Origin: Candidatus Bathyarchaeota archaeon
GTDB lineage: Archaea; Thermoproteota; CALKCG01; B24; DRYS01
NCBI GenBank assembly: GCA_018396535.1
Contig: JAGTQC010000002.1
Span: 71,152-135,151, forward strand
Direction: 5' to 3'
Length of the DNA: 64,000 nt
The notes beneath the pieces were generated by a model. That model was not told the origin of the DNA. It did not search any database and worked only from the letters and a program-made list of their open reading frames with translations. Shown here one piece after another: positions 7,422 to 43,435 of this stretch. The translations under genes were made by a program, and so were the position numbers. Every line of letters begins with the position of its first letter. Positions within the stretch are counted from its first letter, which is position 1.

Positions 7422-7662
7422 GACGGTTAAAGATGTCGAAGCATTCTTATAAATCTTAAATACGGTGAAACATTAGGATTGATCGTCCAACCATTATCAT
7501 AGTTACATCTTATAACTTCTTCTAGATTATCCGATCTTCCTTACTAGATAAGCTTCTCTACATTATGCTAGATTGATCCATTTACAGCTTGGTAGGTATA
7601 GTGGTTCTAGATGCTGTTTAAATCTTTATAGAGTCGGATATGTTGTAAGTAGTGATCAAGAT

Positions 7663-9558
7663 TTGACGAACCCCTTCCTACGCGAAGTAATATTGGAGAA
7701 TTTCATGAGCTATGAGTATGCTAGAATTAAGCTTGCACCAGGTTTAAACCTTATATCTGGTCCGAACGGTTCTGGGAAATCATCGATTCTCCTGGGCATA
7801 TCCATAGCTTTAGGTCAAACTTATACAGAAAGAGCTAGGAGACTTAGCGATCTTATAAGATGGGGTAACGATATAGCACGTGTAACATTAATTTTCGATA
7901 ATAGCGGTAATGATGGTAATAGATTATTTCCATCGATTAAATCTTCTACTGTATCTATATCGAGGATTCTAAGGAGGGATGGAACCTACAGCTTCTATGT
8001 ACTAGGGGAGGAGAGGACGAAGACTGAGGTAATAGAGCTTCTCAGTATGGTTGGTTTAGACCCTGATAATCCATTCATAATAATGCACCAAGGTACGATA
8101 GAGGAGTTTGTAGCTACACGTCCAGAGGAGAAGCTTAAACTTCTAGAGAAGGCTGTAGGCTTCGAGGATTATAGGAGGAATATACTTGAGGCTAGGAGCA
8201 AACTTTCTAAAATCTTATCTGAGGAAGAGGTTATACGTGAGAGGCTAGCTGATGCTGAATCTACGTTAGAATATTGGCGTAGAGAATATGAGAAGCTTAC
8301 ACAATACAAGAGGCTTAAAGAAAGAGAGGAGGAGCTTAGACTGGAGTTGGCATGGTCGAGGATAATCGGTATGGAGAATAGGATAGCTAAGCTAACCGAT
8401 ATGATTGATTATTGTAGTAGGAGAATAGCGAAGCTTGAGAGAATAGGCTCAGATGCTAGATCTAAGCTAATAGATACTGAGAGAGAATTTGAGAGTACAA
8501 TATTCGAAGAGGATAGGCTACTCGAAAGAGTAATCGCATCGGAGAGATTCTTATCGGTAATATCGGAGAGTTCTCGTATACTCGAAAACTATGGTGGACA
8601 ACTCCCCATAGAGTTAGAGAAAGAGCTTAAGAGAAGAGCTATAGATCGAGAAAGGGTCGAGGCAGATTTGAAGAACATGTATAAAGTTTATAGTGGATTG
8701 AGGGTGAAGGAGCGAGAATTGATTAAACGTTACGCTGATCTAAGAGTTGAAGAAGCGTTAGCTTCGTTCGAGGTAAATAGACTCCTAGATGAGAAGAAGC
8801 GTATAGAGGTTAGGTTATCTGAACTTCGATCTAGGATGGAATCTATGTTATCGGAAGTAGGCGGCTCCTCATCAAGACCTCATACTGTTAGGAGTCTAGC
8901 TGAAGTAGAGGAGGAATTGAAAGGGATAGAAGCTAGGATTAGAGCCTTAGGCTCCGTCTCTGAGGATATAGCTGCTATGTATGAGAAGTACAGAGGGGTT
9001 TATGATGAATTGAAATCTAGACTTGAAATACTCTCTGAGAATAAGAATCTACTTTTAAATGAGTTAAACGATAGAATTAAAGTTTGGAGAGATGCATTAG
9101 AAAAACTACTGGATGATGTGAATAGAGAATTTCAAGCTATACTCGAGGGGTTTGGTTATAATGGTTTTGCTAAACTGGTAAATCCACATGATATAGATAG
9201 AAGCGGGTTAGAGATATATATGGGCACCCCAGGTATGGATCCAACCCCGCTTAATAACCTCACACAAAGTGGTGGCGAGAGGAGTCTAGCTATATCTACG
9301 TTTCTCTTAGCCCTCCAACAATACATTAAAAGCCCGTTTAGAGCTTTAGACGAGTATGATGTGCATATGGATCCGGTGAATAGGGAGGCTGTATTGAAAC
9401 ATATAGTAGAGCGGATATCTGGTGAGCGAAGGATACAGTATTTAGTTATAACACCTAATCCGTTACCATTAGCTGCTAAAATCACTAACGTTATAATCGT
9501 TCAGAAGGTGGGAGGGAAATCTAGAATTGGTAAAATCGAAGCCTACGTTGAAGCGTAG
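7663..9558 (+). CDS. SMC-like ABC ATPase lacking a hinge domain (archaeal SMC-related / RecN-sized)
   Basis: N-terminal head 'NFMSYEYARIKL...LISGPNGSGKSSIL' (Walker A) and the Q-loop region 'IIMHQGTIEEF..PEEKLKLLEKAVGF'. C-terminal signature 'LTQSGGERSL', Walker B 'RALDEYDVHMD' and D-loop. Between them is about 350 aa of heptad-rich coiled coil with no hinge or zinc hook. The ORF-track start (7573) is probably too far upstream; TTG at 7663 or ATG at 7705 is more likely. Confidence 0.75.
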   Translation: MTNPFLREVILENFMSYEYARIKLAPGLNLISGPNGSGKSSILLGISIALGQTYTERARRLSDLIRWGNDIARVTLIFDNSGNDGNRLFPSIKSSTVSISRILRRDGTYSFYVLGEERTKTEVIELLSMVGLDPDNPFIIMHQGTIEEFVATRPEEKLKLLEKAVGFEDYRRNILEARSKLSKILSEEEVIRERLADAESTLEYWRREYEKLTQYKRLKEREEELRLELAWSRIIGMENRIAKLTDMIDYCSRRIAKLERIGSDARSKLIDTEREFESTIFEEDRLLERVIASERFLSVISESSRILENYGGQLPIELEKELKRRAIDRERVEADLKNMYKVYSGLRVKERELIKRYADLRVEEALASFEVNRLLDEKKRIEVRLSELRSRMESMLSEVGGSSSRPHTVRSLAEVEEELKGIEARIRALGSVSEDIAAMYEKYRGVYDELKSRLEILSENKNLLLNELNDRIKVWRDALEKLLDDVNREFQAILEGFGYNGFAKLVNPHDIDRSGLEIYMGTPGMDPTPLNNLTQSGGERSLAISTFLLALQQYIKSPFRALDEYDVHMDPVNREAVLKHIVERISGERRIQYLVITPNPLPLAAKITNVIIVQKVGGKSRIGKIEAYVEA

Positions 9559-10306
9559 ATCTGTGAGGAGAGAAGTAGAGAAGATTATAGCACAGTGTAG
9601 GCTTACGATTAAGCGTGGAGCCGATCCGTTTCAGATAGACGTGAAGAGTTCTCTAGGTGTATTAAGAAATTTTCTTAAATCTGCTTCAACCTTAGACGAT
9701 ATCTGTCTAGATGGCGAAGCTATATACAATCTATCTACTGTGGTGGAATCCCAGGATAGATGGGTTAAGTTTAGGTCTAGTAGACTCTTTGTAGATCCTA
9801 TACTTATAGAGTCGAGGATTAAATCTATATCGAACAAAGTGCTAGCACGTATATTCGTATCATGTTGGACACCTATAGCTTCGATAGAAACGTTAACAAT
9901 ACCATCCATAGATCTGGCTATAGACTACTGGAATAGATTAAAACCTATAAAGAGTAGGTGGGGTAGACTACCTAAAGGCTCTATGAAACATCTAACTCTA
10001 TCACCAGATGAAGCTTCTAGACTAGGCTTAATATACGATAGAAGATTTGAGGAGCAATTATCATCTATAGAAGAACAGATTAGAAAACTTCTAGCGAGTG
10101 AGGGAGGGAGAGTTGAGTATAGCATAATAGTCCGCGGCAAGGATTGGATTGAAGCCGTTACTAAAGCTTACCTAGTAAGCTTCCTAGTTTCATCTGGACG
10201 TATAGGTATGACTTACGATCCCTCCACCGATAAATTCTATATAACACCATACAGTAATTATGATAAGCCTAAATCGATCGCCATATCTATAGGGATTGGT
10301 GGATAG
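9527..10306 (+). CDS. Kleisin-sized (ScpA-like?) partner protein of the SMC-like ATPase
   Basis: 259 aa. It overlaps the upstream ATPase gene by 32 nt and the downstream gene by 11 nt, so the three are translationally coupled. The size and position fit a kleisin, but sequence similarity cannot be confirmed by eye. Confidence 0.3.
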   Translation: MVKSKPTLKRRSVRREVEKIIAQCRLTIKRGADPFQIDVKSSLGVLRNFLKSASTLDDICLDGEAIYNLSTVVESQDRWVKFRSSRLFVDPILIESRIKSISNKVLARIFVSCWTPIASIETLTIPSIDLAIDYWNRLKPIKSRWGRLPKGSMKHLTLSPDEASRLGLIYDRRFEEQLSSIEEQIRKLLASEGGRVEYSIIVRGKDWIEAVTKAYLVSFLVSSGRIGMTYDPSTDKFYITPYSNYDKPKSIAISIGIGG

Positions 10307-10856
10307 AGGTATGAAGTCTAGAAAGGATATAGACGAAAGGGCTAGGAGGGCTCTGCAACTAATACTACTACAAAGGCATAGGAAACCTGGTGTAAAAGGG
10401 TGGGAGCTTAGACGCTCCCTAGGTAAGAATTATCTCAGCATACTAGAATACTTGAATGATAAGCTCGACTCCTATGGTTTATGCGTTAAGATGGTGTATG
10501 AGGGAGAGGAGACAAATCCAGATCAAGCTAGGTTCATAGTAACTGTTAAAGATGATATCAAGATGAGTGAAGCCATATCTGCGGGTTGGCGTATAGATGA
10601 GCTTGCTATACTCGCAGCTTCGGTAGCGTATATAGCTTCGAGACAGGGATCTGTAAGCTCTAGGGAATTGATACATCTACTCGAAGCTAAATTCCCTAGA
10701 TGGTTTGTAGAAGCTACTTTGAGGAGGCTTATAAGATCAGGCTACCTAGAGCAGGATCGTGATACTATAATGATTGGGTGGAGGAGTAAAGCTGAGATTG
10801 ATATAAGTAAACTTTTAGAACTCTTAGTTAGGATGGATTTTGAAGGTATAGGTTAA
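10296..10856 (+). CDS. Kite-like (ScpB-like) protein with tandem winged-helix domains
   Basis: 186 aa with two consecutive wHTH-like segments of about 75 aa each: 'RALQLILLQRHRKPGVKGWELRRSL...' and 'ELAILAASVAYIASRQGSVSSRELIHLLEA...RRLIRSGYLEQD'. This matches the ScpB/kite architecture. Confidence 0.4.
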   Translation: MVDRGMKSRKDIDERARRALQLILLQRHRKPGVKGWELRRSLGKNYLSILEYLNDKLDSYGLCVKMVYEGEETNPDQARFIVTVKDDIKMSEAISAGWRIDELAILAASVAYIASRQGSVSSRELIHLLEAKFPRWFVEATLRRLIRSGYLEQDRDTIMIGWRSKAEIDISKLLELLVRMDFEGIG

Positions 10857-10890
10857 GTTAAATAAGACATACGTATATGCTAGTATAGGT

Positions 10891-13800
10891 TTGAAGAGGC
10901 TATCTACTTTTACTACGATACTTACACTTTTATTACTATTATTTACGCATATACTTGAACCTATACCTATGCATGGATATGATAAGATAGTTCCTCCACC
11001 TATACTTGATTATATCTCCAACCGTATGGAAGATTATAGATATCGCGATAGTAATGTAACGATAATAGAGTTAACCGATAGCACCGGCCTCATGGATCTC
11101 TATTCATCTGGTCTTAGAATTAGGTATGTTTCAAAAACTATGCCGGTAGTCTTTGTCGAAGGTTCGAGTGATGAATTAATGAGTATTATAGGAAGTAGAT
11201 ACGTTAAGTCTATATGGCCTGACAGAATAGTGAAGCTTACAGACATAGATATACTAGGCTGTAGATTTTCTCTATCAGGCTATAGAGTAATGCCTCTCAA
11301 TGAGACGACGATTATGGTGAACGCTAATCTTTTATGGAGTATGGGTTATACTGGCAAGGGTGTACGTATAGCTATAATCGATACAGGCGTAAATAGTAGT
11401 CATCCAGACCTCTACTTTCCGAATGGCACAAGTAAGATAGTAGAGTCTATTTCTTTCGTTGGAGAAGATGTGGAGGATAGGCATGGGCATGGAACAGCTA
11501 TGGCGGGGATAGCTGCTGGTTCAGGGCTAGCATCTGATGGTAGGTTTAAAGGTGTTGCTCCAGATGCTCTAATCATAAACGTTAAAGCATTCAAGACTGA
11601 GGGGTTGGAGGCATACTCGACTATAGAAATCCTATTTAAGGCTTTGGAGTATATTGAAACTGTTAAACCAGATGTGATATGTGCTGCATGGGGTATATAC
11701 CCTCCTATACCAGAGGATCACCCGTTTAATAGACTTATAAGAAGACTTGTAGACTTAGGAACAGTATTCGTAGCTGCAGCAGGTAATCTAGGTTACCAAT
11801 GGACGGTAGTATCGCCTTCATCCACCCCATCTGTAATATCTGTAGGAGCTGCTACAAGGAGTGGGGTAGCGTTTTTCTCTTCTAGAGGACCTGATCCATA
11901 TAGTTTGAGAGCTACACCTTTAGTAGTAGCTCCAGGTGTTAGGATAATAGCTCCAGGTAGCGGAGTATTATACGATAAATTCAGGTATGACGGATATGAG
12001 GGTTATATAGAGATATCTGGTACATCACCAGCTACAGCTCACGTAGCAGGTGTTGTAGCTTTGATTCTATCAGCTAAACCTTGGCTTACACCTCAAGCTA
12101 TACTTGCTGGTTTAGTTGCTTCAGCTAAACCTTTCAAAGATGTAGATTACACGGAGCAGGGAGCAGGCTTAGTAGATGCGTATAGTTGTCTCAAAGCGCT
12201 CGAGGAAGATTTACAACCGTTCGAGGTTAGAGTACCTGTAGAGTATACTAGCGGGCTTAGATCTATAACGCTAGATCGTAGAGGGGGAACTCCTATACTC
12301 GGTTCACACTACTATAAAACCTATGGAAACTACACTATGATAGGTAACGGCTTATTCCACTTGATACTTTCTGAGAAGGCTATGCTTACATGGCTATTCT
12401 ACAGTAAGGCTAGGGTATTGGAGGGTTTATCCATATCGATCCTACCGATCGATTCTGATAGATGGATAACATATGAGTCTATGAATACTACTACAGGTTT
12501 TAAACTAACTAGTTTTTCAGATAGATTGTGGAGCGGGTATGCGGATCTCGAGTATAAGGGGATAAGGATTCGTATAGAAGTAGCAATACCACTTGACCAA
12601 CCATACATAGAGTTTAAGTTTTTAAAGACGAGTGGGGATGTAGAACTTTTAAACGTTACTCTAGCTCCTTCCATTATGCTAGGCTTCATAGAGGCTGCTT
12701 ACCTAGGTGGGCTTGAAGGTATTATCGTATGGAGTAGGGATACATTTATAGGATTAGCTTCTACTGATAAACCTTACAGTCATCTTCTAGGTAAATCTAG
12801 AGATGCTTATGCGGTTAACTCTGAAAACGTGACTTTGACGTTCAAATATAGTGGAACATCTATCAAGGTCTATGTAGCTATATGCGATTCTTATAGGGAG
12901 GTAGCATCTACGCTTTCGATACTTACGGGTAGGGATGTAGCTGAAGCTTTCCTAAAGCCTATCGAAGTTATAAGGATATTACCTCCTGAAACATCCAGCG
13001 TTTTCAGAATACTCGTTAGGAATCTTGGGTCTAGTAGAGATGTGAGAATCTCTATAAGGGTTGTAGGTCTACCTAATAGTAGTACCTATGAGTATAATAT
13101 GTGTTACGATATACATCTAGATAGCTATACGGATAATCGTTACGAATTCCGTCTACCGAAGCTATCTATGGGGTTATACAGAGTTTACGTTGAGTTAGAG
13201 AATCTACCATGCGAGATCCATAGATCGTATGATAGACTAGTATTCGATCTATATGTAGGCTTATACCCTAGGATAGTAGTGTCTCTACCTTATATGATAG
13301 ATGGTATCGAAAAGCCGTTCATACTCATGTATCCCGGGGATGTTGATTATCTAAACGTAACTTTGATATCTTCAACTCCTATATCTTGGGTTAACGCTTA
13401 CATTGTAGGGAATGCGTCACTAATACTCAGAGTATACTCGACTAAAAATGTAGGTTTCCAAGTTTATACTTCCATATATGGTTACATACCAGATGGTTTA
13501 GAACCTACGATGTATAGTGGAAGCTTGGTATTTGAGAGTTATGGAAGTGTTATAGCCTCTGTACCTGTAAATATAAGTGTATGTGAACCTATAGCCACAG
13601 TTCTATGGCATGATAGACTAGATTTCATACCTGGTAGGAACGATTTATACCTATGGTATACGGAGTTATGGAGGACTTCAGCTCTTAGGGGTATAAGGAT
13701 TGTTCCTGCTAGCCTACATATAGCACAGCCTAAGAGAATCGATTTACTTATACTCCCAGACCCATACTACGGATACCAGGATATACGTTCAGTACTAGAC

Positions 13801-14736
13801 TACTTCTTAGAACGCGACGGTTCTGCAGTTATACTCGTAGGTCCAGCTATATTTGCTCTGAAGTATGGCTATAGGATGATACTTGAGGAGTATGGGTTGA
13901 AAGCTGTTAAGGAGCCATATTTTAGGTGGAGTAATTCGTCTACTAAACTTGATCTATATGGTTTTGAAGAATTAGCTTCTTTGAATTTAACGGTAGTATA
14001 TGGTGTATTTTTCGATGTATCTACGACTACTATAAGGGGGGCTGTACAGGTTATGTTTAGAGCTCTAGAGGTTGGCCCATATGGATTCCTTAATGTATCG
14101 AGTAGCTTCTATTCATCGTTCATCTGTAGGAGTCTACCAGATGGTAGAGTAAAATTATTCGTGTATTCTAGCGTCTATAGCTTCGATGATCTATGGTGTA
14201 GACTAGGCTATGAGGTTAAATGGGATATAGAGGAGGGGAGGCTTATAGGCTATGTAGAGCCTATCGAGAATGTTACTGCTAGGAATATAGATCTCCTAAC
14301 CATTATAGCGTCTAGGTTATCGAATAAACCTCCAAGGATTTTATCAATTAACGTTCTAGATAGTAGGGTGGAACAAATGTTTGAATCCTATACGCTAGTA
14401 GTAGCTGCTAGGGATGAAGAGGGTGATGCTGGTAAGCTTAATGTTACAGCTAGAATAGAGAAGCCTAACGGTGTTACCGTCCATATAGGTGGATCCTATC
14501 TTAAAGATGGGATATACATCCTATACTATACACCTGGTATGAATGACCCAGTAGGGGAATATAATGTTGTAGTTAGGGTTGAGGATATGCTTTATGCCTA
14601 TAGCGAGAGATACTTAAAGTTTGAGGTTATACCACCTATTCGAAGTATACTGATGATTATTATTCTAGTAGGGTTACCATTCGCTATCATAGGCTATATA
14701 CTCGGTAGAAGGGTTAGGTTGAGGATTCGCGAGTAG
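10891..14736 (+). CDS. Very large cell-surface subtilisin-like serine protease (peptidase S8) with N-terminal signal peptide and C-terminal TM anchor
   Basis: Signal-like N-terminus 'LSTFTTILTLLLLLF'. S8 catalytic triad motifs: 'GVRIAIIDTGV' (Asp), 'HGHGTAMAGIAAG' (His) and 'ISGTSPATAHVAGVVAL' (Ser). About 900 aa of beta-rich extension follow, then a C-terminal 'ILMIIILVGLPFAIIGYILGRRVR' anchor. Confidence 0.8.
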   Translation: MKRLSTFTTILTLLLLLFTHILEPIPMHGYDKIVPPPILDYISNRMEDYRYRDSNVTIIELTDSTGLMDLYSSGLRIRYVSKTMPVVFVEGSSDELMSIIGSRYVKSIWPDRIVKLTDIDILGCRFSLSGYRVMPLNETTIMVNANLLWSMGYTGKGVRIAIIDTGVNSSHPDLYFPNGTSKIVESISFVGEDVEDRHGHGTAMAGIAAGSGLASDGRFKGVAPDALIINVKAFKTEGLEAYSTIEILFKALEYIETVKPDVICAAWGIYPPIPEDHPFNRLIRRLVDLGTVFVAAAGNLGYQWTVVSPSSTPSVISVGAATRSGVAFFSSRGPDPYSLRATPLVVAPGVRIIAPGSGVLYDKFRYDGYEGYIEISGTSPATAHVAGVVALILSAKPWLTPQAILAGLVASAKPFKDVDYTEQGAGLVDAYSCLKALEEDLQPFEVRVPVEYTSGLRSITLDRRGGTPILGSHYYKTYGNYTMIGNGLFHLILSEKAMLTWLFYSKARVLEGLSISILPIDSDRWITYESMNTTTGFKLTSFSDRLWSGYADLEYKGIRIRIEVAIPLDQPYIEFKFLKTSGDVELLNVTLAPSIMLGFIEAAYLGGLEGIIVWSRDTFIGLASTDKPYSHLLGKSRDAYAVNSENVTLTFKYSGTSIKVYVAICDSYREVASTLSILTGRDVAEAFLKPIEVIRILPPETSSVFRILVRNLGSSRDVRISIRVVGLPNSSTYEYNMCYDIHLDSYTDNRYEFRLPKLSMGLYRVYVELENLPCEIHRSYDRLVFDLYVGLYPRIVVSLPYMIDGIEKPFILMYPGDVDYLNVTLISSTPISWVNAYIVGNASLILRVYSTKNVGFQVYTSIYGYIPDGLEPTMYSGSLVFESYGSVIASVPVNISVCEPIATVLWHDRLDFIPGRNDLYLWYTELWRTSALRGIRIVPASLHIAQPKRIDLLILPDPYYGYQDIRSVLDYFLERDGSAVILVGPAIFALKYGYRMILEEYGLKAVKEPYFRWSNSSTKLDLYGFEELASLNLTVVYGVFFDVSTTTIRGAVQVMFRALEVGPYGFLNVSSSFYSSFICRSLPDGRVKLFVYSSVYSFDDLWCRLGYEVKWDIEEGRLIGYVEPIENVTARNIDLLTIIASRLSNKPPRILSINVLDSRVEQMFESYTLVVAARDEEGDAGKLNVTARIEKPNGVTVHIGGSYLKDGIYILYYTPGMNDPVGEYNVVVRVEDMLYAYSERYLKFEVIPPIRSILMIIILVGLPFAIIGYILGRRVRLRIRE

Positions 14737-27839: not shown

Positions 27840-29261
27840 ATGAGCGAGGATTATGCGAAGTTTATAGATGGGGCTAGAAAACTATCCGAAACCATATACG
27901 AGTGGGTATATGAGAATCAGCCAGTTATTATTCTAGGGCATAACGATGCGGATGGTATATCTGCTACAGCTATTATCTCTAAAACACTTTATAGAGCTGG
28001 GGTTAGGTTTCATGCTAGAATACTTCGAAGGCTTGAAGCTTCTGAGCTTGAGAGAGCTTCTAGTTCCGGTAGGATGACTATATTATGCGATATGGGTAGT
28101 GGCTATCTAAGCCTGTTATCTAAGTATAGTTGGAATGGAGGGTTAGCTATACTAGATCATCATAAACCAGAGTTATTTGAAGCTCCATCAAATTCTATAC
28201 ATATCAATCCACACCTCTACGGTCTGGATGGGGTATCTGAAATAAGCGGTTCTGGTGTAGCTTATATAGTGTCTAAAGGCTTTTCTAGAGTAGAGTGTAA
28301 GGATCTAGCAGTTTTAGCTATAGTGGGAGCTTTAGGTGATATGCAGGATATAGATGTAGGTCGTAGTCTAAGAGGGGTGAATAAACTTATAGTTAAGGAA
28401 GCTGAGGGGGAGGGGTACTTAACCGTTCAGAGGGATCTACTACTACCTGGGAGGGAAAGTAGACCTATACATATAGCTTTAGCAAGCTTAGTTAATCCGT
28501 TTATACCTGGTTTATCAGGTGATGAGGATGCCTGTATATCCTTCTTATCTAAACTTGGGATAAGCCTGAAGGAATCGGGTAGATGGAGGACTCTATCAGA
28601 TCTATCTAAAGAAGAGAAGCAAATGCTATTCAATGAGCTTTTAAGATATCTTGCAGAAAACAGCTATCCAACATCTATACTCAGGGATTTGATAGGTACA
28701 GTCTATATCTTACAGAAGGAGAGGAGGTTTAGCTATATGAGGGATGCTAGGGAGTATGCATCACTATTGAATGCTTGTAGTAGGATGGGGTTATATGGGT
28801 TAGCATTAACCATAGCTATGGGTGATAGAGGGGATGATACGATAGCGAAGGCGGAATCAACCTATATAGATTATCGTAGGAAGATTTCTAGTTATATACG
28901 TACTATATTATCTGAGCCCGGTAGGATAATCTCTATGGGTAAATTCTATCTTCTAAAATGTTTAGATCTAGTAGAGGAGGATTTGCTTAGCGTCGTAACT
29001 TCTATCATAACGGAATCCTATCTCGCTGATAGAGGTTTACCTGTTATAGCTCTATCTGGAGCATCTAGTGGTGAAGTTAAAGTCTCGGCTAGATTACCTA
29101 GGAGTAGTAAAGTTCAGAATATGGATTTAGGTTTAGTTATGCGTAGAGCAGCTAGTAGGGTTGGAGGTGAGGGGGGAGGGCACTCGGTAGCAGCTGGAGC
29201 GTATATTGCGAAAGGTAAGGTAGAGGATTTTATAGCGGCTTTGGTAGAGGAGATGGGTTAG
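27840..29261 (+). CDS. DHH-family phosphoesterase, archaeal RecJ/Cdc45-like (GAN-type) nuclease
   Basis: 'ILGHNDADGISA' DHH motif I, 'LDHH' motif, and a DHHA1-like C-terminal 'GGGH' motif ('GGEGGGHSVAAG'). 473 aa. Confidence 0.75.
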   Translation: MSEDYAKFIDGARKLSETIYEWVYENQPVIILGHNDADGISATAIISKTLYRAGVRFHARILRRLEASELERASSSGRMTILCDMGSGYLSLLSKYSWNGGLAILDHHKPELFEAPSNSIHINPHLYGLDGVSEISGSGVAYIVSKGFSRVECKDLAVLAIVGALGDMQDIDVGRSLRGVNKLIVKEAEGEGYLTVQRDLLLPGRESRPIHIALASLVNPFIPGLSGDEDACISFLSKLGISLKESGRWRTLSDLSKEEKQMLFNELLRYLAENSYPTSILRDLIGTVYILQKERRFSYMRDAREYASLLNACSRMGLYGLALTIAMGDRGDDTIAKAESTYIDYRRKISSYIRTILSEPGRIISMGKFYLLKCLDLVEEDLLSVVTSIITESYLADRGLPVIALSGASSGEVKVSARLPRSSKVQNMDLGLVMRRAASRVGGEGGGHSVAAGAYIAKGKVEDFIAALVEEMG

Positions 29262-41871: not shown

Positions 41872-43143
41872 CTATAGATAGTCTTGAATATTCCGCTGGT
41901 ATAATTCACGTCTAAGTAGATGGCTATGCTTTACCCATACCTTTAAAGGTATTTCAAGACTACTAGATATGATTGATAAAGCTTCTTCTATACTTTGACA
42001 TACTATCGGCTTCTTCCTCAAAGCATTGCGTACATGCTCTCTCACATGCCATACACCTACAGGCATAATATACCCTGGATGTATTTCTCTAAGTATCAAA
42101 ACCGAAGCTTGCCTCATTATAGAGTTGAGATACTCTGCAACCGCAAGTCTAGCAGCGTAGTAGCATCCACCGATGATAGCGTAATTCTTCTTACCATGAT
42201 AACCTTCCCAATCTCCTTCAATAACTGGGATCCTACCATCCGGGTTCCAGACGGTTTTAGGATACCATGCTTCTATAGATTCATAGCTCCAAAAACTAGG
42301 CATCATCAATATCTTGAATCGATTATCGAGATATACAGATTCAAATAATAGGTATGTAGAGATAGGCGGATAATGCTTAACCTTTTCTAGAATCCTTTCA
42401 GATATTATAGAATCTACAGCAGTTATACTCCATCTAGTAGGTACCAGCCTACGGTTGGATCCTATACCGAATATACCTAGACTAAAGGCTTTCTGTATAG
42501 AGCTTACCGATACACCAGATCTATATAGATCGAAAACAGCATCCGCAGCTTTGATATCCCTATCATAGTAAATCTTCTCCATACGTCTATCAACATAGAT
42601 ATTACCCCCAGGTATGATTCTAGATAAAGGAGCAGATATACCCAACGGCTGAACCTCGTCATCTAATACTATAGAGGCTCTAGGCTTACTAGCAAGCTTA
42701 ACCTCTAGATCAACTGGTTTATAGGACATAGCTAACTCTTGAAGAGTTACTAGAAGACTATCTGGGTTAGCAGCTGAATCGACACGCATAAGTCTTTCAC
42801 CTCTTAAAAGTATACTACGAAATCTAACTATATCTTCTATAGACATACCAAACCAGTATTCAGGAGTATCTAGTATCCGTGTATCACCTTTAAACGGAGG
42901 TGTTAAAGGCCCGACATATACTTTAGGATAGCCAAACCTACCTACAAAAACACCTGGAGGGGAGGATCCTTCAACATCGAGTTTATCGAAATACCTTACT
43001 GCCTCATACATAATGCTAGCTCTAACTATTACAGGACACCTACTCTTACCACAAAGTAGATGCGCACCCTTACATATAACGCATAACCTACTAGATCTTT
43101 TAGTATCGATAAGCTTACTATTGATGTCTAGAAACCAGTTCAT
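41872..43143 (-). CDS. NreA-like protein (COG1602, DUF650/DUF651 archaeal DNA-repair-associated family), tentative
   Basis: N-terminal 'LCVICKGAHLLCGKSRCP' Cys motif that I associate with the Nre family. 423 aa. Confidence 0.45.
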   Translation of the reverse strand: MNWFLDINSKLIDTKRSSRLCVICKGAHLLCGKSRCPVIVRASIMYEAVRYFDKLDVEGSSPPGVFVGRFGYPKVYVGPLTPPFKGDTRILDTPEYWFGMSIEDIVRFRSILLRGERLMRVDSAANPDSLLVTLQELAMSYKPVDLEVKLASKPRASIVLDDEVQPLGISAPLSRIIPGGNIYVDRRMEKIYYDRDIKAADAVFDLYRSGVSVSSIQKAFSLGIFGIGSNRRLVPTRWSITAVDSIISERILEKVKHYPPISTYLLFESVYLDNRFKILMMPSFWSYESIEAWYPKTVWNPDGRIPVIEGDWEGYHGKKNYAIIGGCYYAARLAVAEYLNSIMRQASVLILREIHPGYIMPVGVWHVREHVRNALRKKPIVCQSIEEALSIISSSLEIPLKVWVKHSHLLRRELYQRNIQDYL

Positions 43144-43295: not shown

Positions 43296-43435
43296 TGCCG
43301 GGCGGGGGCTTCGAACCCCCGACTTCTGGTAGCCCGGTCTTAGACCCGTATGAACGGCTATCTCCAGATTATGAGTCTCACCCTAACCCCATATGGATAG
43401 GGGTCTGGCGCTCTAACCAGCTGAGCTAGCCCGGC
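43296..43435 (-). tRNA. tRNA with CAT anticodon (elongator Met or Ile2-type) containing two introns
   Basis: Minus-strand read: acceptor GCCGGGC/GCCCGGC+A, D-arm GCTC-AGCTGGTTA-GAGC, anticodon stem CCAGA/TCTGG, loop CTCATAA (anticodon CAT), variable AGGTC, T-arm GGGGG-TTCGAAG-CCCCC. A 28-nt insert follows the 5' anticodon-stem strand. A 37-38-nt insert lies in the variable region. The mature length is about 74-75 nt. No encoded CCA. Confidence 0.6.

What the first reader, a model, noticed from the sequence alone, without database searches (positions are those of the whole stretch)
7663..10856. Compact hinge-less SMC-like ATPase with kleisin-sized and kite-like partners in one coupled operon
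Seen in sequence: a roughly 630-aa ABC ATPase with an authentic SMC-type head lies about 350 aa of coiled coil away from its other half. The head comprises Walker A, the Q-loop 'MHQGTIEEF' block, the 'SGGER' signature, Walker B and the D-loop. It has no hinge and no zinc hook. It is translationally coupled (32-nt and 11-nt overlaps) to a 259-aa protein and a 186-aa protein made of two tandem winged-helix domains, which is the ScpB/kite architecture. Canonical archaeal SMC is about 1150 aa with a hinge, so this is not the standard condensin. Half-size SMC-like ATPases with small partners are known as archaeal SMC-related proteins of unknown function. They also occur as defence modules such as Lamassu LmuB and the Wadjet JetC/A/B logic. 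A complete SMC-kleisin-kite triad built on a hinge-less mini-SMC would be worth characterising, as either a minimal chromosome-organising complex or a DNA-sensing defence system.
Basis: partly seen in the sequence, partly recalled or inferred. Interest (0 to 1): 0.7.

Follow-up and report, generated by a model that had tools for sequence, protein, structure and literature searches.

The report
Hinge-less archaeal SMC5/6-like operon
This three-gene operon on a Bathyarchaeia chromosome encodes the archaeal relative of the eukaryotic SMC5/6 DNA-maintenance complex (ATPase, Nse4-like kleisin, Nse1/3-like kite); that kind of complex is already predicted in the literature, but here the ATPase is short and has lost its hinge.

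Summary
Window 7663-10856 (+) carries three tightly packed genes: a 631-aa SMC-type ATPase, a 259-aa protein and a 181/186-aa protein.

Profile and fold searches identify the trio as the archaeal "SMC5/6-related" complex:
- The ATPase family profile scores best on eukaryotic SMC6 and SMC5. It shares their DEFDVxMD D-loop and their Q..ITP motif, which replaces the H-loop histidine.
- The 259-aa protein is a kleisin. Its best sequence hits are Nse4, and its C-terminal winged helix superposes on ScpA, Scc1 and Nse4.
- The small protein is a tandem winged-helix kite closest to Nse1/Nse3, not ScpB.

The same gene order recurs in 12 of 13 related loci across Thermoproteota, among housekeeping genes. 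I found no defence signature.

Yoshinaga & Inagaki (2021) and van Hooff et al. (bioRxiv 2024/25) already describe this operon type, including a Bathyarchaeota example. The trio is therefore a member of a known, experimentally uncharacterised kind.

Those papers do not mention the architecture. The arms are about 145 residues long, and the apex is a variable hairpin with no hinge and no zinc hook. Hinge-bearing relatives with the same partners exist in Asgard archaea. CxxC-hook relatives without partners exist in Bathyarchaeota. The hinge-less state therefore looks derived.

Function is inferred: an ATP-gated DNA clamp for chromosome maintenance.

The parts
7617..7632 (+). A/T-rich TATA-like element (TTTAAATCTTTATAGA) about 35 nt upstream of the ATPase start; putative archaeal promoter
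   Evidence: Read directly from the sequence. Promoter function is an inference. The sigma-70 scan does not apply to archaea.
7663..9558 (+). SMC5/6-related, hinge-less SMC ATPase, 631 aa
   Evidence: Pfam SMC_N E 5.9e-34. Family profile against PDB: human SMC6 217.6 bits, yeast Smc6 206, yeast Smc5 201, Pyrococcus Smc 161, SMC2 145. The C-terminal head alone hits SMC5 and SMC6 first. NCBI calls the gene at 631 aa.
7759..7782 (+). Walker A, GPNGSGKS (residues 33-40)
   Evidence: invariant across the family alignment.
8083..8091 (+). Q-loop, MHQ (residues 141-143)
   Evidence: M141, H142 and Q143 are invariant.
8158..8592 (+). Ascending coiled-coil arm (residues 166-310, about 145 aa, roughly 21 nm if fully helical)
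   Evidence: No Pro, almost no Gly, heptad periodicity. The length in nm is my calculation at 0.148 nm per residue.
8593..8607 (+). Apex turn, GGQLP (residues 311-315): a plain hairpin where a hinge or hook would sit
   Evidence: This is the least conserved part of the family alignment and varies in length, with indels of up to about 100 columns. No Pfam SMC_hinge. 0 of 173 short family members have a CxxC there.
8608..9159 (+). Descending coiled-coil arm (residues 316-499), with a conserved break at 8857-8892 (VGGSSSRPHTVR, residues 399-410) that I read as the head-proximal 'joint'
   Evidence: The segment aligns with human SMC6 'ERIEVEKSAS...'. Calling it a joint is an inference.
9265..9279 (+). 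ABC signature, QSGGE (residues 535-539)
   Evidence: invariant.
9334..9372 (+). Walker B (PFRALDE, catalytic E564) and D-loop YDVHMD; the family consensus DEFDVHMD matches SMC6 DEFDV(F/Y)MD
9436..9456 (+). QYLVITP: Thr-Pro in place of the H-loop histidine, as in SMC5 (QYFLITP) and SMC6 (QFILLTP)
9527..10306 (+). Nse4-related kleisin, 259 aa. N-terminal helical domain 9548-9781, low-confidence linker 9782-10039, C-terminal winged helix 10040-10249. Overlaps the ATPase gene by 32 nt
10311..10856 (+). Nse1/Nse3-type kite, 181 aa from ATG 10311 (the ORF opens at TTG 10296, 186 aa). WH1 about 10308-10547, WH2 about 10563-10796

Best explanation
The three genes encode the Thermoproteota (TACK) form of the archaeal SMC5/6-related complex: a homodimer-forming SMC5/6-like ATPase, an Nse4-like kleisin and an Nse1/3-like kite.

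Shown:
- The family identity of each subunit.
- Conservation of the operon.
- Intact ATPase motifs.
- Absence of a hinge or a hook.

Inferred by analogy with solved Smc5/6-Nse4-Nse1/3 and Smc-ScpAB structures:
- Two ATPase heads engage on two ATP molecules.
- The kleisin N-terminal helices bind the coiled-coil neck of one ATPase.
- The kleisin C-terminal winged helix binds the cap of the other ATPase.
- A kite dimer sits on the kleisin linker.
- Together they clamp double-stranded DNA on top of the engaged heads.

Without a hinge the two roughly 21-nm arms are not permanently joined at the far end. The only closed compartment would then be the one formed by the engaged heads and the kleisin. 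The complex would act as an ATP-gated DNA clamp or bridge rather than a permanently closed tripartite ring.

Its genomic setting points to a housekeeping role in chromosome maintenance (repair, replication stress or local DNA organisation), usually alongside a canonical Smc-ScpAB.
For: ATPase:
- The family profile ranks SMC6 and SMC5 above every other solved SMC. The C-terminal head alone gives the same ranking.
- Against 1.84 billion representatives, the best hits outside the family are mostly SMC5-type (DEINQGMD) and SMC6-type (DEFDV[FY]MD) proteins, including a fungal protein.
- It shares the DEFDVxMD and Q..ITP motifs.
- Published maximum-likelihood trees place 'SMC5/6-related aSMC' from Bathyarchaeota, Verstraetearchaeota, Thaumarchaeota and Crenarchaeota with SMC5/6.

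Kleisin.

Kite.

Operon:
- The ATPase-kleisin-kite order is kept in 12 of 13 loci with downstream DNA, from Bathyarchaeia, Methanomethylicia, Thermofilales and a 'Thaumarchaeota' MAG.
- The published Bathyarchaeota example has the same order.

Housekeeping context:
- In the window the flanks are GMP synthase, a DUF401 protein, a subtilase and RNase HII.
- In related loci the flanks are the RNA polymerase A'/L30e/NusA operon or Lhr helicases.
- The partner proteins hit no PADLOC model.

Hinge loss.

Hinge-bearing relatives keep the same kleisin and kite downstream:
- Ca. Freyarchaeum, 835 aa, SMC_hinge 43.6 bits.
- P0305 and P0319.
Against: - No experiment exists for any member of this family, and none was found in the searchable literature.
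- No multimer model could be run. Subunit contacts, stoichiometry and any self-association of the hairpin tips are untested.
- The kleisin model is only moderately confident (pLDDT 61.6). Its sequence link to Nse4 is borderline (E about 1e-3), and an unrelated designed repeat protein scored slightly better.
- In the large library the best canonical-type SMCs score about as high (242 bits) as the best SMC5/6-type proteins (248 bits). The SMC5/6 affinity therefore rests on motifs, counts, PDB ranking, my unsupported NJ tree and the published trees.
- I could not check whether this particular genome also carries canonical smc-scpAB.
Confidence: 0.75

Rival explanations
1. The trio is an anti-plasmid or anti-virus defence module. 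An SMC-like sensor with kleisin and kite partners would recognise foreign DNA, as in Wadjet or Lamassu, or as in the restriction of extrachromosomal DNA by eukaryotic SMC5/6.
For: - PADLOC head-level hits: mad3 1.1e-33, LmuB 4.1e-20, JetC 5.9e-9.
- Short-armed, hinge-less SMC-like ATPases are typical of defence systems, and eukaryotic SMC5/6 restricts viral and episomal DNA (my background knowledge).
Against: - The PADLOC hits cover only the generic ABC head. Neither partner protein hits any PADLOC model.
- No nuclease or other effector gene is in the operon or conserved next to it.
- The flanks are housekeeping genes, including the RNA polymerase operon.
- The trio is broadly conserved across whole classes of Thermoproteota and in Asgard archaea. 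That pattern fits vertical inheritance rather than patchy defence islands (literature).
Confidence: 0.12
2. It is the cell's main condensin. In lineages that lost canonical Smc-ScpAB, the hinge-less complex would take over bulk chromosome folding and segregation.
For: - Yoshinaga & Inagaki report that 36 of 80 genomes with an SMC5/6-related aSMC lack a detected canonical aSMC.
- No canonical smc, scpA or scpB lies in the 64-kb window.
Against: - Published tables show ScpB-like kites in most Bathyarchaeia, next to the Nse4-like and Nse1/3-like pair.
- Many of the genomes are incomplete MAGs.
- Arms of about 21 nm with no hinge are hard to reconcile with current loop-extrusion models built on 50-nm arms and a closed ring (inference).
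- The rest of this genome could not be searched.
Confidence: 0.1
3. The ATPase is a stand-alone Rad50, RecN or ASRP (coalescin)-type repair or compartment protein, and the two small downstream genes are unrelated.
For: - Size, coiled-coil hairpin and absence of a hinge resemble RecN and ASRP.
- NCBIfam gives sub-threshold hits to ASRP (73.8 bits), Rad50 (about 69) and RecN (41.7).
Against: - All of those scores are far below the cut-offs (300, 700 and 408) and below the SMC_prok_A score of 226.
- There is no CxxC hook and no Mre11-like neighbour.
- The downstream genes are a kleisin and a kite by sequence and fold, and they co-occur with the ATPase in 12 of 13 loci.
Confidence: 0.03

Closest known systems
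Archaeal 'SMC5/6-related' complex (Yoshinaga & Inagaki 2021, PMC8665677; van Hooff et al., bioRxiv 10.1101/2024.01.07.573240)
   Same: - The three subunit families are the same: an SMC5/6-related SMC, an Nse4-related kleisin and an Nse1/3-related kite.
- The operon order is the same.
- The taxa are the same (Bathyarchaeia and other TACK lineages, plus Asgard).
- A Bathyarchaeota example is listed in their Supplementary Table 3.
   Different: There is no difference in kind; this locus is a member. In those papers the word 'hinge' appears only in general introductions. They do not mention that the TACK ATPases are about 550-690 aa and hinge-less. No member has been studied experimentally.
Eukaryotic SMC5/6 core (Smc5-Smc6-Nse4-Nse1-Nse3)
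   Same: - Head sequence signatures: DEFDVxMD, and Q..ITP instead of the H-loop His.
- An Nse4-type kleisin and an Nse1/3-type tandem winged-helix kite.
   Different: - One SMC gene, so presumably a homodimer, instead of Smc5 plus Smc6.
- One kite gene instead of Nse1 plus Nse3.
- The 181-aa kite has no RING domain.
- No Nse2, Nse5 or Nse6.
- Arms of about 145 residues instead of about 350, and no hinge.
Hinge-bearing archaeal SMC5/6-related proteins (Ca. Freyarchaeum 835 aa; Odinarchaeota and Thorarchaeota about 1120 aa; P0305, P0319)
   Same: - Same head family.
- Homologous kleisin and kite lie directly downstream in the three loci examined.
   Different: They keep a central globular hinge: Pfam SMC_hinge 43.6 and 40.2 bits in Freyarchaeum and Odinarchaeota. 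The window's protein has a bare hairpin.
Prokaryotic Smc-ScpAB
   Different: - The ATPase lacks the hinge and the 50-nm arms.
- TIGR02169 scores 226 bits against a cut-off of 729.
ASRP family (coalescin ClsN, Sph1/2) and Rad50
   Same: Compact SMC-superfamily ATPases with a coiled-coil hairpin and no SMC hinge.
   Different: - ASRP and Rad50 carry a CxxC zinc hook and have no kleisin or kite partner.
- This protein has no hook, scores below the ASRP and Rad50 cut-offs, and has both partners.
Lamassu (LmuB) and Wadjet (JetABCD) defence systems
   Same: SMC-like ATPases. Wadjet also uses kleisin-like and kite-like partners.
   Different: - No LmuA, LmuC, JetA, JetB or JetD equivalents were detected, and there is no nuclease.
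- Only generic head similarity is seen.
- The context is housekeeping.

Membership tests
Archaeal SMC5/6-related complex | The SMC subunit groups with eukaryotic SMC5/6 rather than with canonical SMC or SMC1-4 | tested here: met
   - PDB ranking: SMC6 217, SMC5 201, above archaeal Smc 161 and SMC1-4 at 145 or less. The C-terminal head alone gives the same order.
- It shares DEFDVxMD and Q..ITP.
- About 45 SMC5/6-type against about 9 canonical-type proteins appear among the top 150 of 1.84 billion.
- The NJ tree carries no support values.
- Caveat: the best canonical SMC scores about the same number of bits as the best SMC5/6 in the large library.
Archaeal SMC5/6-related complex | An Nse4-related kleisin encoded next to the SMC gene | tested here: met
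   - Profile hits to Nse4 (E 1.2e-3) and EID3 (2.4e-3), ahead of ScpA (about 0.1).
- The C-terminal winged helix has the kleisin fold.
- Adjacent in 12 of 13 loci.
- The sequence evidence is borderline.
Archaeal SMC5/6-related complex | An Nse1/3-related (MAGE-like) kite encoded next to the kleisin gene | tested here: met
   - Pfam MAGE in 6 of 45 members and SMC_Nse1 in 3 of 45, with no ScpB hit.
SMC proteins in the strict sense | ABC head with Walker A, Q-loop, signature, Walker B and D-loop split by a coiled coil | tested here: met
SMC proteins in the strict sense | Central hinge dimerisation domain | tested here: not met
   - No Pfam SMC_hinge hit at E<=1.
- The apex is a short, unconserved hairpin of variable length.
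- Relatives with a hinge do score on the same model, so the test has power.
SMC proteins in the strict sense | Antiparallel arms about 50 nm long (about 300-350 residues each) | tested here: not met
   Arms are about 145 residues (ascending) and about 184 residues (descending, including a break).
Prokaryotic Smc-ScpAB | ScpB-type kite and equivalog-level SMC | tested here: not met
   [not shown]
ASRP (ClsN/Sph) | NCBIfam NF045487 at or above 300 bits, and a zinc-hook CxxC at the apex | tested here: not met
   73.8 bits. One Cys in the whole protein. 0 of 173 short family members have a mid-protein CxxC.
Rad50/SbcC | Zinc hook, Mre11/SbcD partner, equivalog score | tested here: not met
   Best Rad50 model scores 69.5 bits against 700. 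No hook. Among the adjacent genes annotated, no Mre11-type nuclease gene was found; the only phosphoesterase-like neighbour is a PHP-domain gene about 4.7 kb downstream.
Lamassu / Wadjet / MADS defence systems | System-specific partners and effector (LmuA/LmuC; JetA/B/D; other mad genes) | tested here: not met
   Only the ATPase head hits LmuB, JetC and mad3 models. The two partner proteins hit no PADLOC model, and the neighbours are housekeeping genes.
Eukaryotic SMC5/6 holo-complex | Smc5/Smc6 heterodimer, Nse1 RING, Nse2 SUMO ligase, Nse5/6 | tested here: not met
   One SMC gene and one 181-aa kite without a RING. No further conserved genes in the operon.
Any SMC-kleisin-kite complex | Physical bridging of SMC neck and cap by the kleisin, and binding of a kite dimer to the kleisin | not testable with these tools
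   No multimer prediction or experiment was available. This is inferred from homology only.

The most novel reading that the evidence does not exclude
The bare-hairpin, short-armed ATPase is the normal state of the SMC5/6-related complex across Thermoproteota. It arose by deletion of the hinge from ancestors like those still found in Asgard archaea, which keep the same kleisin and kite. Within Bathyarchaeota it later gave rise to long-armed CxxC zinc-hook paralogues that left the kleisin/kite operon.

If this is right, the closest prokaryotic relatives of eukaryotic SMC5/6 work without any permanent arm-to-arm junction. An SMC-kleisin-kite machine would then function as an ATP-gated clamp without a closed tripartite ring. 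This natural series (hinge, then no hinge, then hook) appears not to have been reported in the papers I could search.
Probability: 0.4. Interest if true: 0.65.

Novelty: new member of a known kind. Interest (0 to 1): 0.5.

Why it matters
The core biochemical job of SMC5/6 is the least understood among the eukaryotic SMC complexes. Its archaeal relatives have been proposed as a way to get at the ancestral function (van Hooff et al.).

This locus shows that the commonest archaeal version is a three-protein, thermophile-derived complex with arms of roughly 21 nm and no hinge. That makes it an attractive minimal object for structural and single-molecule work. It is also a natural test of whether a hinge, and hence a closed ring, is needed for DNA clamping, loading or loop extrusion.

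The hinge-bearing, hinge-less and hook-bearing relatives give a ready-made comparative series.

The value is moderate rather than high. The complex as such is already predicted in the literature, and everything about its function here is inferred.

Tried and rejected
- Defence reading: a PADLOC scan of all three proteins gave only generic head hits and nothing for the partners. Neighbours in the window and in 14 related loci are housekeeping genes. Rejected as the main explanation.
- ASRP, Rad50, RecN and arcadin-4: all far below the NCBIfam cut-offs.
- ScpB identity of the kite: no sequence or whole-fold support. The kite profile against PDB sequences found nothing useful, so a structure prediction was needed.
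- The first kleisin profile (12 sequences) gave only E 0.024-0.11 for Nse4. Adding 11 operon-derived sequences improved this to about 1e-3, which is still borderline.
- The afdb50 fold library was not available.
- The bacterial promoter/terminator scan is uninformative for an archaeon.
- Supplementary files of the 2021 paper are not held, so I could not match accession numbers (RLE49317.1, RJS84987.1) to its tree.
- The two structure-prediction jobs went to the kleisin and the kite. The ATPase architecture therefore rests on alignment, composition, periodicity and domain searches, not on a model.
- A second SMC, kleisin or kite was searched for in the window with family HMMs. None was found.

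Full report
**1. What is in the sequence**

Window 7663-10856 holds three co-directional, tightly packed ORFs:
- a 631-aa ATPase at 7663-9558;
- a 259-aa protein at 9527-10306, overlapping the ATPase gene by 32 nt;
- a small protein ending at 10856.

The TTG 7663 start of the ATPase has two supports. The nearly invariant first strand 'EVILENFMSYEY' lies upstream of the first ATG. NCBI calls the gene at 631 aa in identical contigs.

For the third gene the ORF opens at TTG 10296 (186 aa). Public calls use ATG 10311 (181 aa), 4 nt after the kleisin stop, and a GGTGGA motif lies 8 nt upstream of that ATG. The 32-nt overlap is solid.

A TATA-like TTTAAATCTTTATAGA lies about 35 nt upstream of 7663. 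Its promoter role is an inference.

Identical or near-identical proteins come from 'Candidatus Bathyarchaeia archaeon' MAGs. The rest of the window is ordinary chromosomal content: glycosidases, PEP synthase, RNase HII, a RecJ/GAN-like DHH protein and Nre.

**2. The ATPase**

All ABC/SMC head motifs are present and conserved. Pfam SMC_N scores E 5.9e-34. NCBIfam places it nearest to SMC (TIGR02169, 226 bits, heads only). It is far below the cut-offs for ASRP (73.8 against 300), Rad50, RecN and arcadin-4.

A 40-sequence family profile searched against all PDB sequences gives this ranking:
- human SMC6, 217.6 bits;
- yeast Smc6, about 206;
- yeast Smc5, about 201;
- human SMC5, 169.5;
- Pyrococcus Smc, 161.5;
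- SMC2, 145;
- SMC1, SMC3 and SMC4, 125 or less;
- Rad50, about 39.

The C-terminal head alone also hits SMC5 and SMC6 first.

The alignments show two shared signatures. The D-loop reads DEFDVxMD, as in SMC6 (DEFDV[FY]MD), where canonical SMCs have DE[VI]DAxLD. The motif Q..(I/L)TP replaces the H-loop histidine, as in SMC5 (QYFLITP) and SMC6 (QFILLTP).

In an exhaustive profile search of 1.84 billion representatives, the short family fills roughly the first hundred ranks. Most of the next hits are 1000-1200-aa proteins with SMC5-type or SMC6-type motifs. One of these is a fungal protein. Only about nine canonical-type SMCs reach the top 150.

One caveat applies. The best canonical SMC (242 bits) scores about the same as the best SMC5/6-type hit (248 bits). 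Raw scores in that search do not discriminate. The case rests on the motifs, the counts, the PDB ranking, a rough NJ tree and the published, supported phylogenies.

**3. No hinge and no hook**

- Pfam finds no SMC_hinge even at E<=1.
- The same model does detect hinges in related proteins, so the negative result is meaningful.
- Residues 166-310 and 316-499 are free of Pro, nearly free of Gly, and show heptad periodicity.
- The turn is GGQLP (residues 311-315).
- In the family alignment the apex is the least conserved region. It varies by up to about 100 columns, and members range from 548 to about 720 aa.
- The protein has one cysteine. None of 173 short family members has a mid-protein CxxC.
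- A conserved break at residues 399-410 aligns with a segment of SMC6. I take it to be the head-proximal joint; this is an inference.
- Each arm is therefore about 145 residues, roughly 21 nm if fully helical (my calculation), against about 50 nm in canonical SMC.

**4. The kleisin**

Sequence evidence:
- The single sequence gives only faint Pfam hints (Nse4_C, E 0.16).
- A 12-sequence profile puts human NSE4/EID3 (E 0.024) and yeast Nse4 (0.11) at the top of the PDB list.
- Adding 11 operon-derived homologues improves this to yeast Nse4 1.2e-3 and EID3 2.4e-3, with archaeal ScpA C-terminal domains at about 0.1.
- All of these align to the C-terminal winged helix.
- In the same search an unrelated designed repeat protein scored marginally better through a repeated 20-residue match, so the statistics are borderline.

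Structure evidence:
- The AF2 model (pLDDT 61.6) has the classic kleisin layout. An N-terminal helical domain spans residues 8-85, a low-confidence linker spans 86-171, and a C-terminal winged helix spans 172-241.
- Foldseek's top hits are Nse4 (7tve_G), RAD21, Nse4 again, and then ScpA, Scc1 and RAD21 C-domains at probabilities up to 1.00.

**5. The kite**

- The AF2 model is confident (pLDDT 88.8) and shows two tandem winged helices.
- Pfam scans of 45 family members give weak MAGE hits in 6 and SMC_Nse1 hits in 3, and none to ScpB.
- One homologue, 79% identical, is named 'MAGE domain-containing protein' in nr.

**6. Conservation and context**

With the window itself, 12 of the 13 loci that have DNA downstream of the ATPase carry the kleisin and kite immediately downstream in the same order. 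They come from Bathyarchaeia, Methanomethylicia, Thermofilales and a 'Thaumarchaeota' MAG. L011 is the exception.

ATPase homologues are also named from Nezhaarchaeales, Hadarchaeales, Nitrososphaerales and Culexmicrobium.

The flanks differ between lineages and are housekeeping genes:
- the RNA polymerase A'/L30e/NusA operon in four Bathyarchaeia loci;
- Lhr-type helicases in three loci;
- an unknown 224-aa protein in six loci.

In the window the flanks are GMP synthase, a DUF401 membrane protein and a subtilase. The partner proteins hit no PADLOC model. This pattern does not fit a defence island.

**7. What the literature already says**

Yoshinaga & Inagaki (2021) defined 'SMC5/6-related aSMC homologs'. 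Sixty-six of the 80 came from TACK archaea, among them Bathyarchaeota, Verstraetearchaeota, Thaumarchaeota, Crenarchaeota and Korarchaeota. These group with SMC5/6. Forty-four of the 80 genomes also carry a canonical SMC.

van Hooff et al. (bioRxiv 2024, v2 2025) showed that the SMC5/6-related SMC sits in an operon with an Nse4-related kleisin and an Nse1/3-related kite. They proposed two SMC complexes in the TACK/Asgard ancestor. They list a Bathyarchaeota example with the order SMC-kleisin-kite. Their table shows Bathyarchaeia rows with adjacent Nse4-related and Nse1/3-related genes plus a ScpB-like kite.

The trio in the window is therefore a member of a described, though purely predicted, kind.

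In both papers and their held supplements the word 'hinge' occurs only in general descriptions of SMC proteins. Full-text searches found no paper describing hinge-less archaeal SMC5/6-like proteins or any experiment on them. One 2025 paper reports an unrelated actinobacterial 'hinge-less SMC' cluster. Subscription-only literature was not searchable.

**8. Relatives with other apex types**

These were found while testing how far the short form extends.

(a) Hinge-bearing relatives:
- Ca. Freyarchaeum deiterrae has an 835-aa protein with SMC_hinge at 43.6 bits.
- An Odinarchaeota protein of 1127 aa scores 40.2 bits on SMC_hinge. A Thorarchaeota protein of 1126 aa belongs to the same group, but Pfam found no SMC_hinge in it at E<=0.01, so its hinge is assumed from its length only.
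- Two unnamed proteins of 982 and 928 aa have a globular central region.
- The three loci examined (Freyarchaeum, the 982-aa and the 928-aa proteins) carry homologues of the window's kleisin (E 1.6e-12 to 6.6e-44) and kite (E 1.8e-12 to 1.6e-30) directly downstream.

(b) CxxC relatives:
- Bathyarchaeota proteins of 1016-1047 aa, plus a partial one from Hermodarchaeota, score 734-802 bits on the family profile.
- They carry a conserved C(D/E)(K/R)CGS motif in the middle of much longer coiled coils, which looks like a zinc hook.
- In the two loci read, no kleisin or kite lies nearby.
- They are not ASRPs by the NCBIfam cut-off (85-97 bits).

In a rough NJ tree of head domains, without support values, the 928-aa and 982-aa hinge-bearing proteins branch just outside the short family. 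The CxxC forms nest deep inside it. Eukaryotic SMC5 plus SMC6 is sister to that whole group.

My reading is that the hinge was lost once at the base of the main short family, and that a hook was gained later in one offshoot. This is an inference. A second short lineage (P0332, P0333) groups with the Freyarchaeum protein and may represent an independent loss. That was not followed up.

**9. Mechanism**

Shown:
- three subunits of the right families;
- intact catalytic motifs;
- operon coupling;
- no hinge and no hook.

Inferred from solved Smc5/6 core and Smc-ScpAB structures, such as those cited:
- ATP engages two heads.
- The kleisin bridges the neck of one ATPase and the cap of the other.
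- A kite dimer on the kleisin linker helps clamp DNA on the heads.

Without a hinge, the only compartment that can be closed is the one formed by the engaged heads and the kleisin. I therefore expect an ATP-gated clamp or bridge rather than a stable tripartite ring, unless the hairpin tips or the arms self-associate. The poor conservation of the tip argues against a dedicated dimerisation element but does not exclude arm zippering.

A housekeeping role in chromosome maintenance is favoured (confidence 0.75 for identity plus general mode of action). The rivals are defence (0.12), main condensin (0.10) and a stand-alone Rad50/ASRP-like protein (0.03).

**10. Verdict**

- The locus is a new member of a known, uncharacterised kind.
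- The hinge-less architecture, and the hinge / no hinge / hook series around it, is the part that seems unreported and worth a specialist's attention.

Noticed in passing
P0263, P0265, P0272 (1016-1047 aa; Bathyarchaeota), P0314 and P0317 (partial); loci L030:2105-5248 and L035:3501-6587: Close relatives of the window's ATPase (734-802 bits on the family profile) have much longer coiled coils. They carry a conserved C(D/E)(K/R)CGS..(Q/H)W motif at mid-length, which looks like a Rad50/ASRP-style zinc hook. No kleisin or kite gene lies within about 4 kb in either locus. They score below the NCBIfam ASRP cut-off.
   Followed up: partly
L031:4001-7632 (Ca. Freyarchaeum deiterrae CP147778.1), L033:3501-7748, L034:3501-7938: These are hinge-bearing SMC5/6-related ATPases of 835, 982 and 928 aa. 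Each is followed by homologues of the window's kleisin and kite. In L034 the kleisin is 384 aa, with an extra N-terminal region of about 130 aa that gives weak MarR/HTH hits.
   Followed up: partly
L031:2625-4004: In Freyarchaeum a 459-aa AAA+ ATPase gene (Pfam AAA, AAA_lid_3) ends 4 nt inside the SMC5/6-like gene. It may be a fourth operon member specific to that lineage.
   Followed up: no
P0332, P0333 (633 and 628 aa; D-loop DEFE[VI]HLD): This is a second short, hinge-less lineage. In the rough NJ tree it groups with the hinge-bearing Freyarchaeum protein rather than with the main short family, which hints at an independent hinge loss. Its taxon and neighbours were not examined.
   Followed up: no
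L005:3951-6788(-), L007:2987-5818(-) and 9216-12071(-), L012:2398-5295(-): Lhr-type DNA helicase genes (DEAD, DEAD_assoc, WH_Lhr) lie directly next to the trio in three loci from different lineages, on both sides in L007. This may hint at a DNA-repair link.
   Followed up: partly
L002:5233-5907(-), L014:5146-5835(-), L007:1480-2256(-), L009:3069-3785(-), L010:2270-2983(-), L004:13272-13922(+): An unannotated protein family of about 224 aa (no Pfam hit) recurs near the trio in six loci, usually divergently transcribed just upstream. It is absent from the first 20 kb of the window.
   Followed up: no
L003:80-1593, L004:1052-5657, L006:10945-13900, L014:10790-13826: In four Bathyarchaeia loci the trio sits next to the conserved RNA polymerase A'/ribosomal L30e/NusA-KH gene cluster.
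   Followed up: partly
L011:140-952: This is the one related locus where the ATPase gene is followed by convergent, unrelated genes (a membrane protein and a KaiC/RecA-like ATPase) instead of the kleisin and kite.
   Followed up: no
window 43296-43435 (-): Rfam reports a tRNA match spanning 140 nt (42 bits) that ARAGORN does not find. It is probably an intron-containing archaeal tRNA gene.
   Followed up: no
window 10891-14736 (+): A 1281-aa subtilase (Peptidase_S8) with an N-terminal signal-like segment and a C-terminal transmembrane segment starts 35 nt after the kite gene on the same strand. It is conserved next to the trio only in near-identical contigs, not in other lineages.
   Followed up: partly
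window 27840-29261 (+) and 41872-43143 (-): Other DNA-metabolism genes lie on the same chromosomal stretch: a DHH/DHH-CID/DHHA1 protein (RecJ/GAN-like) and an archaeal Nre protein.
   Followed up: no
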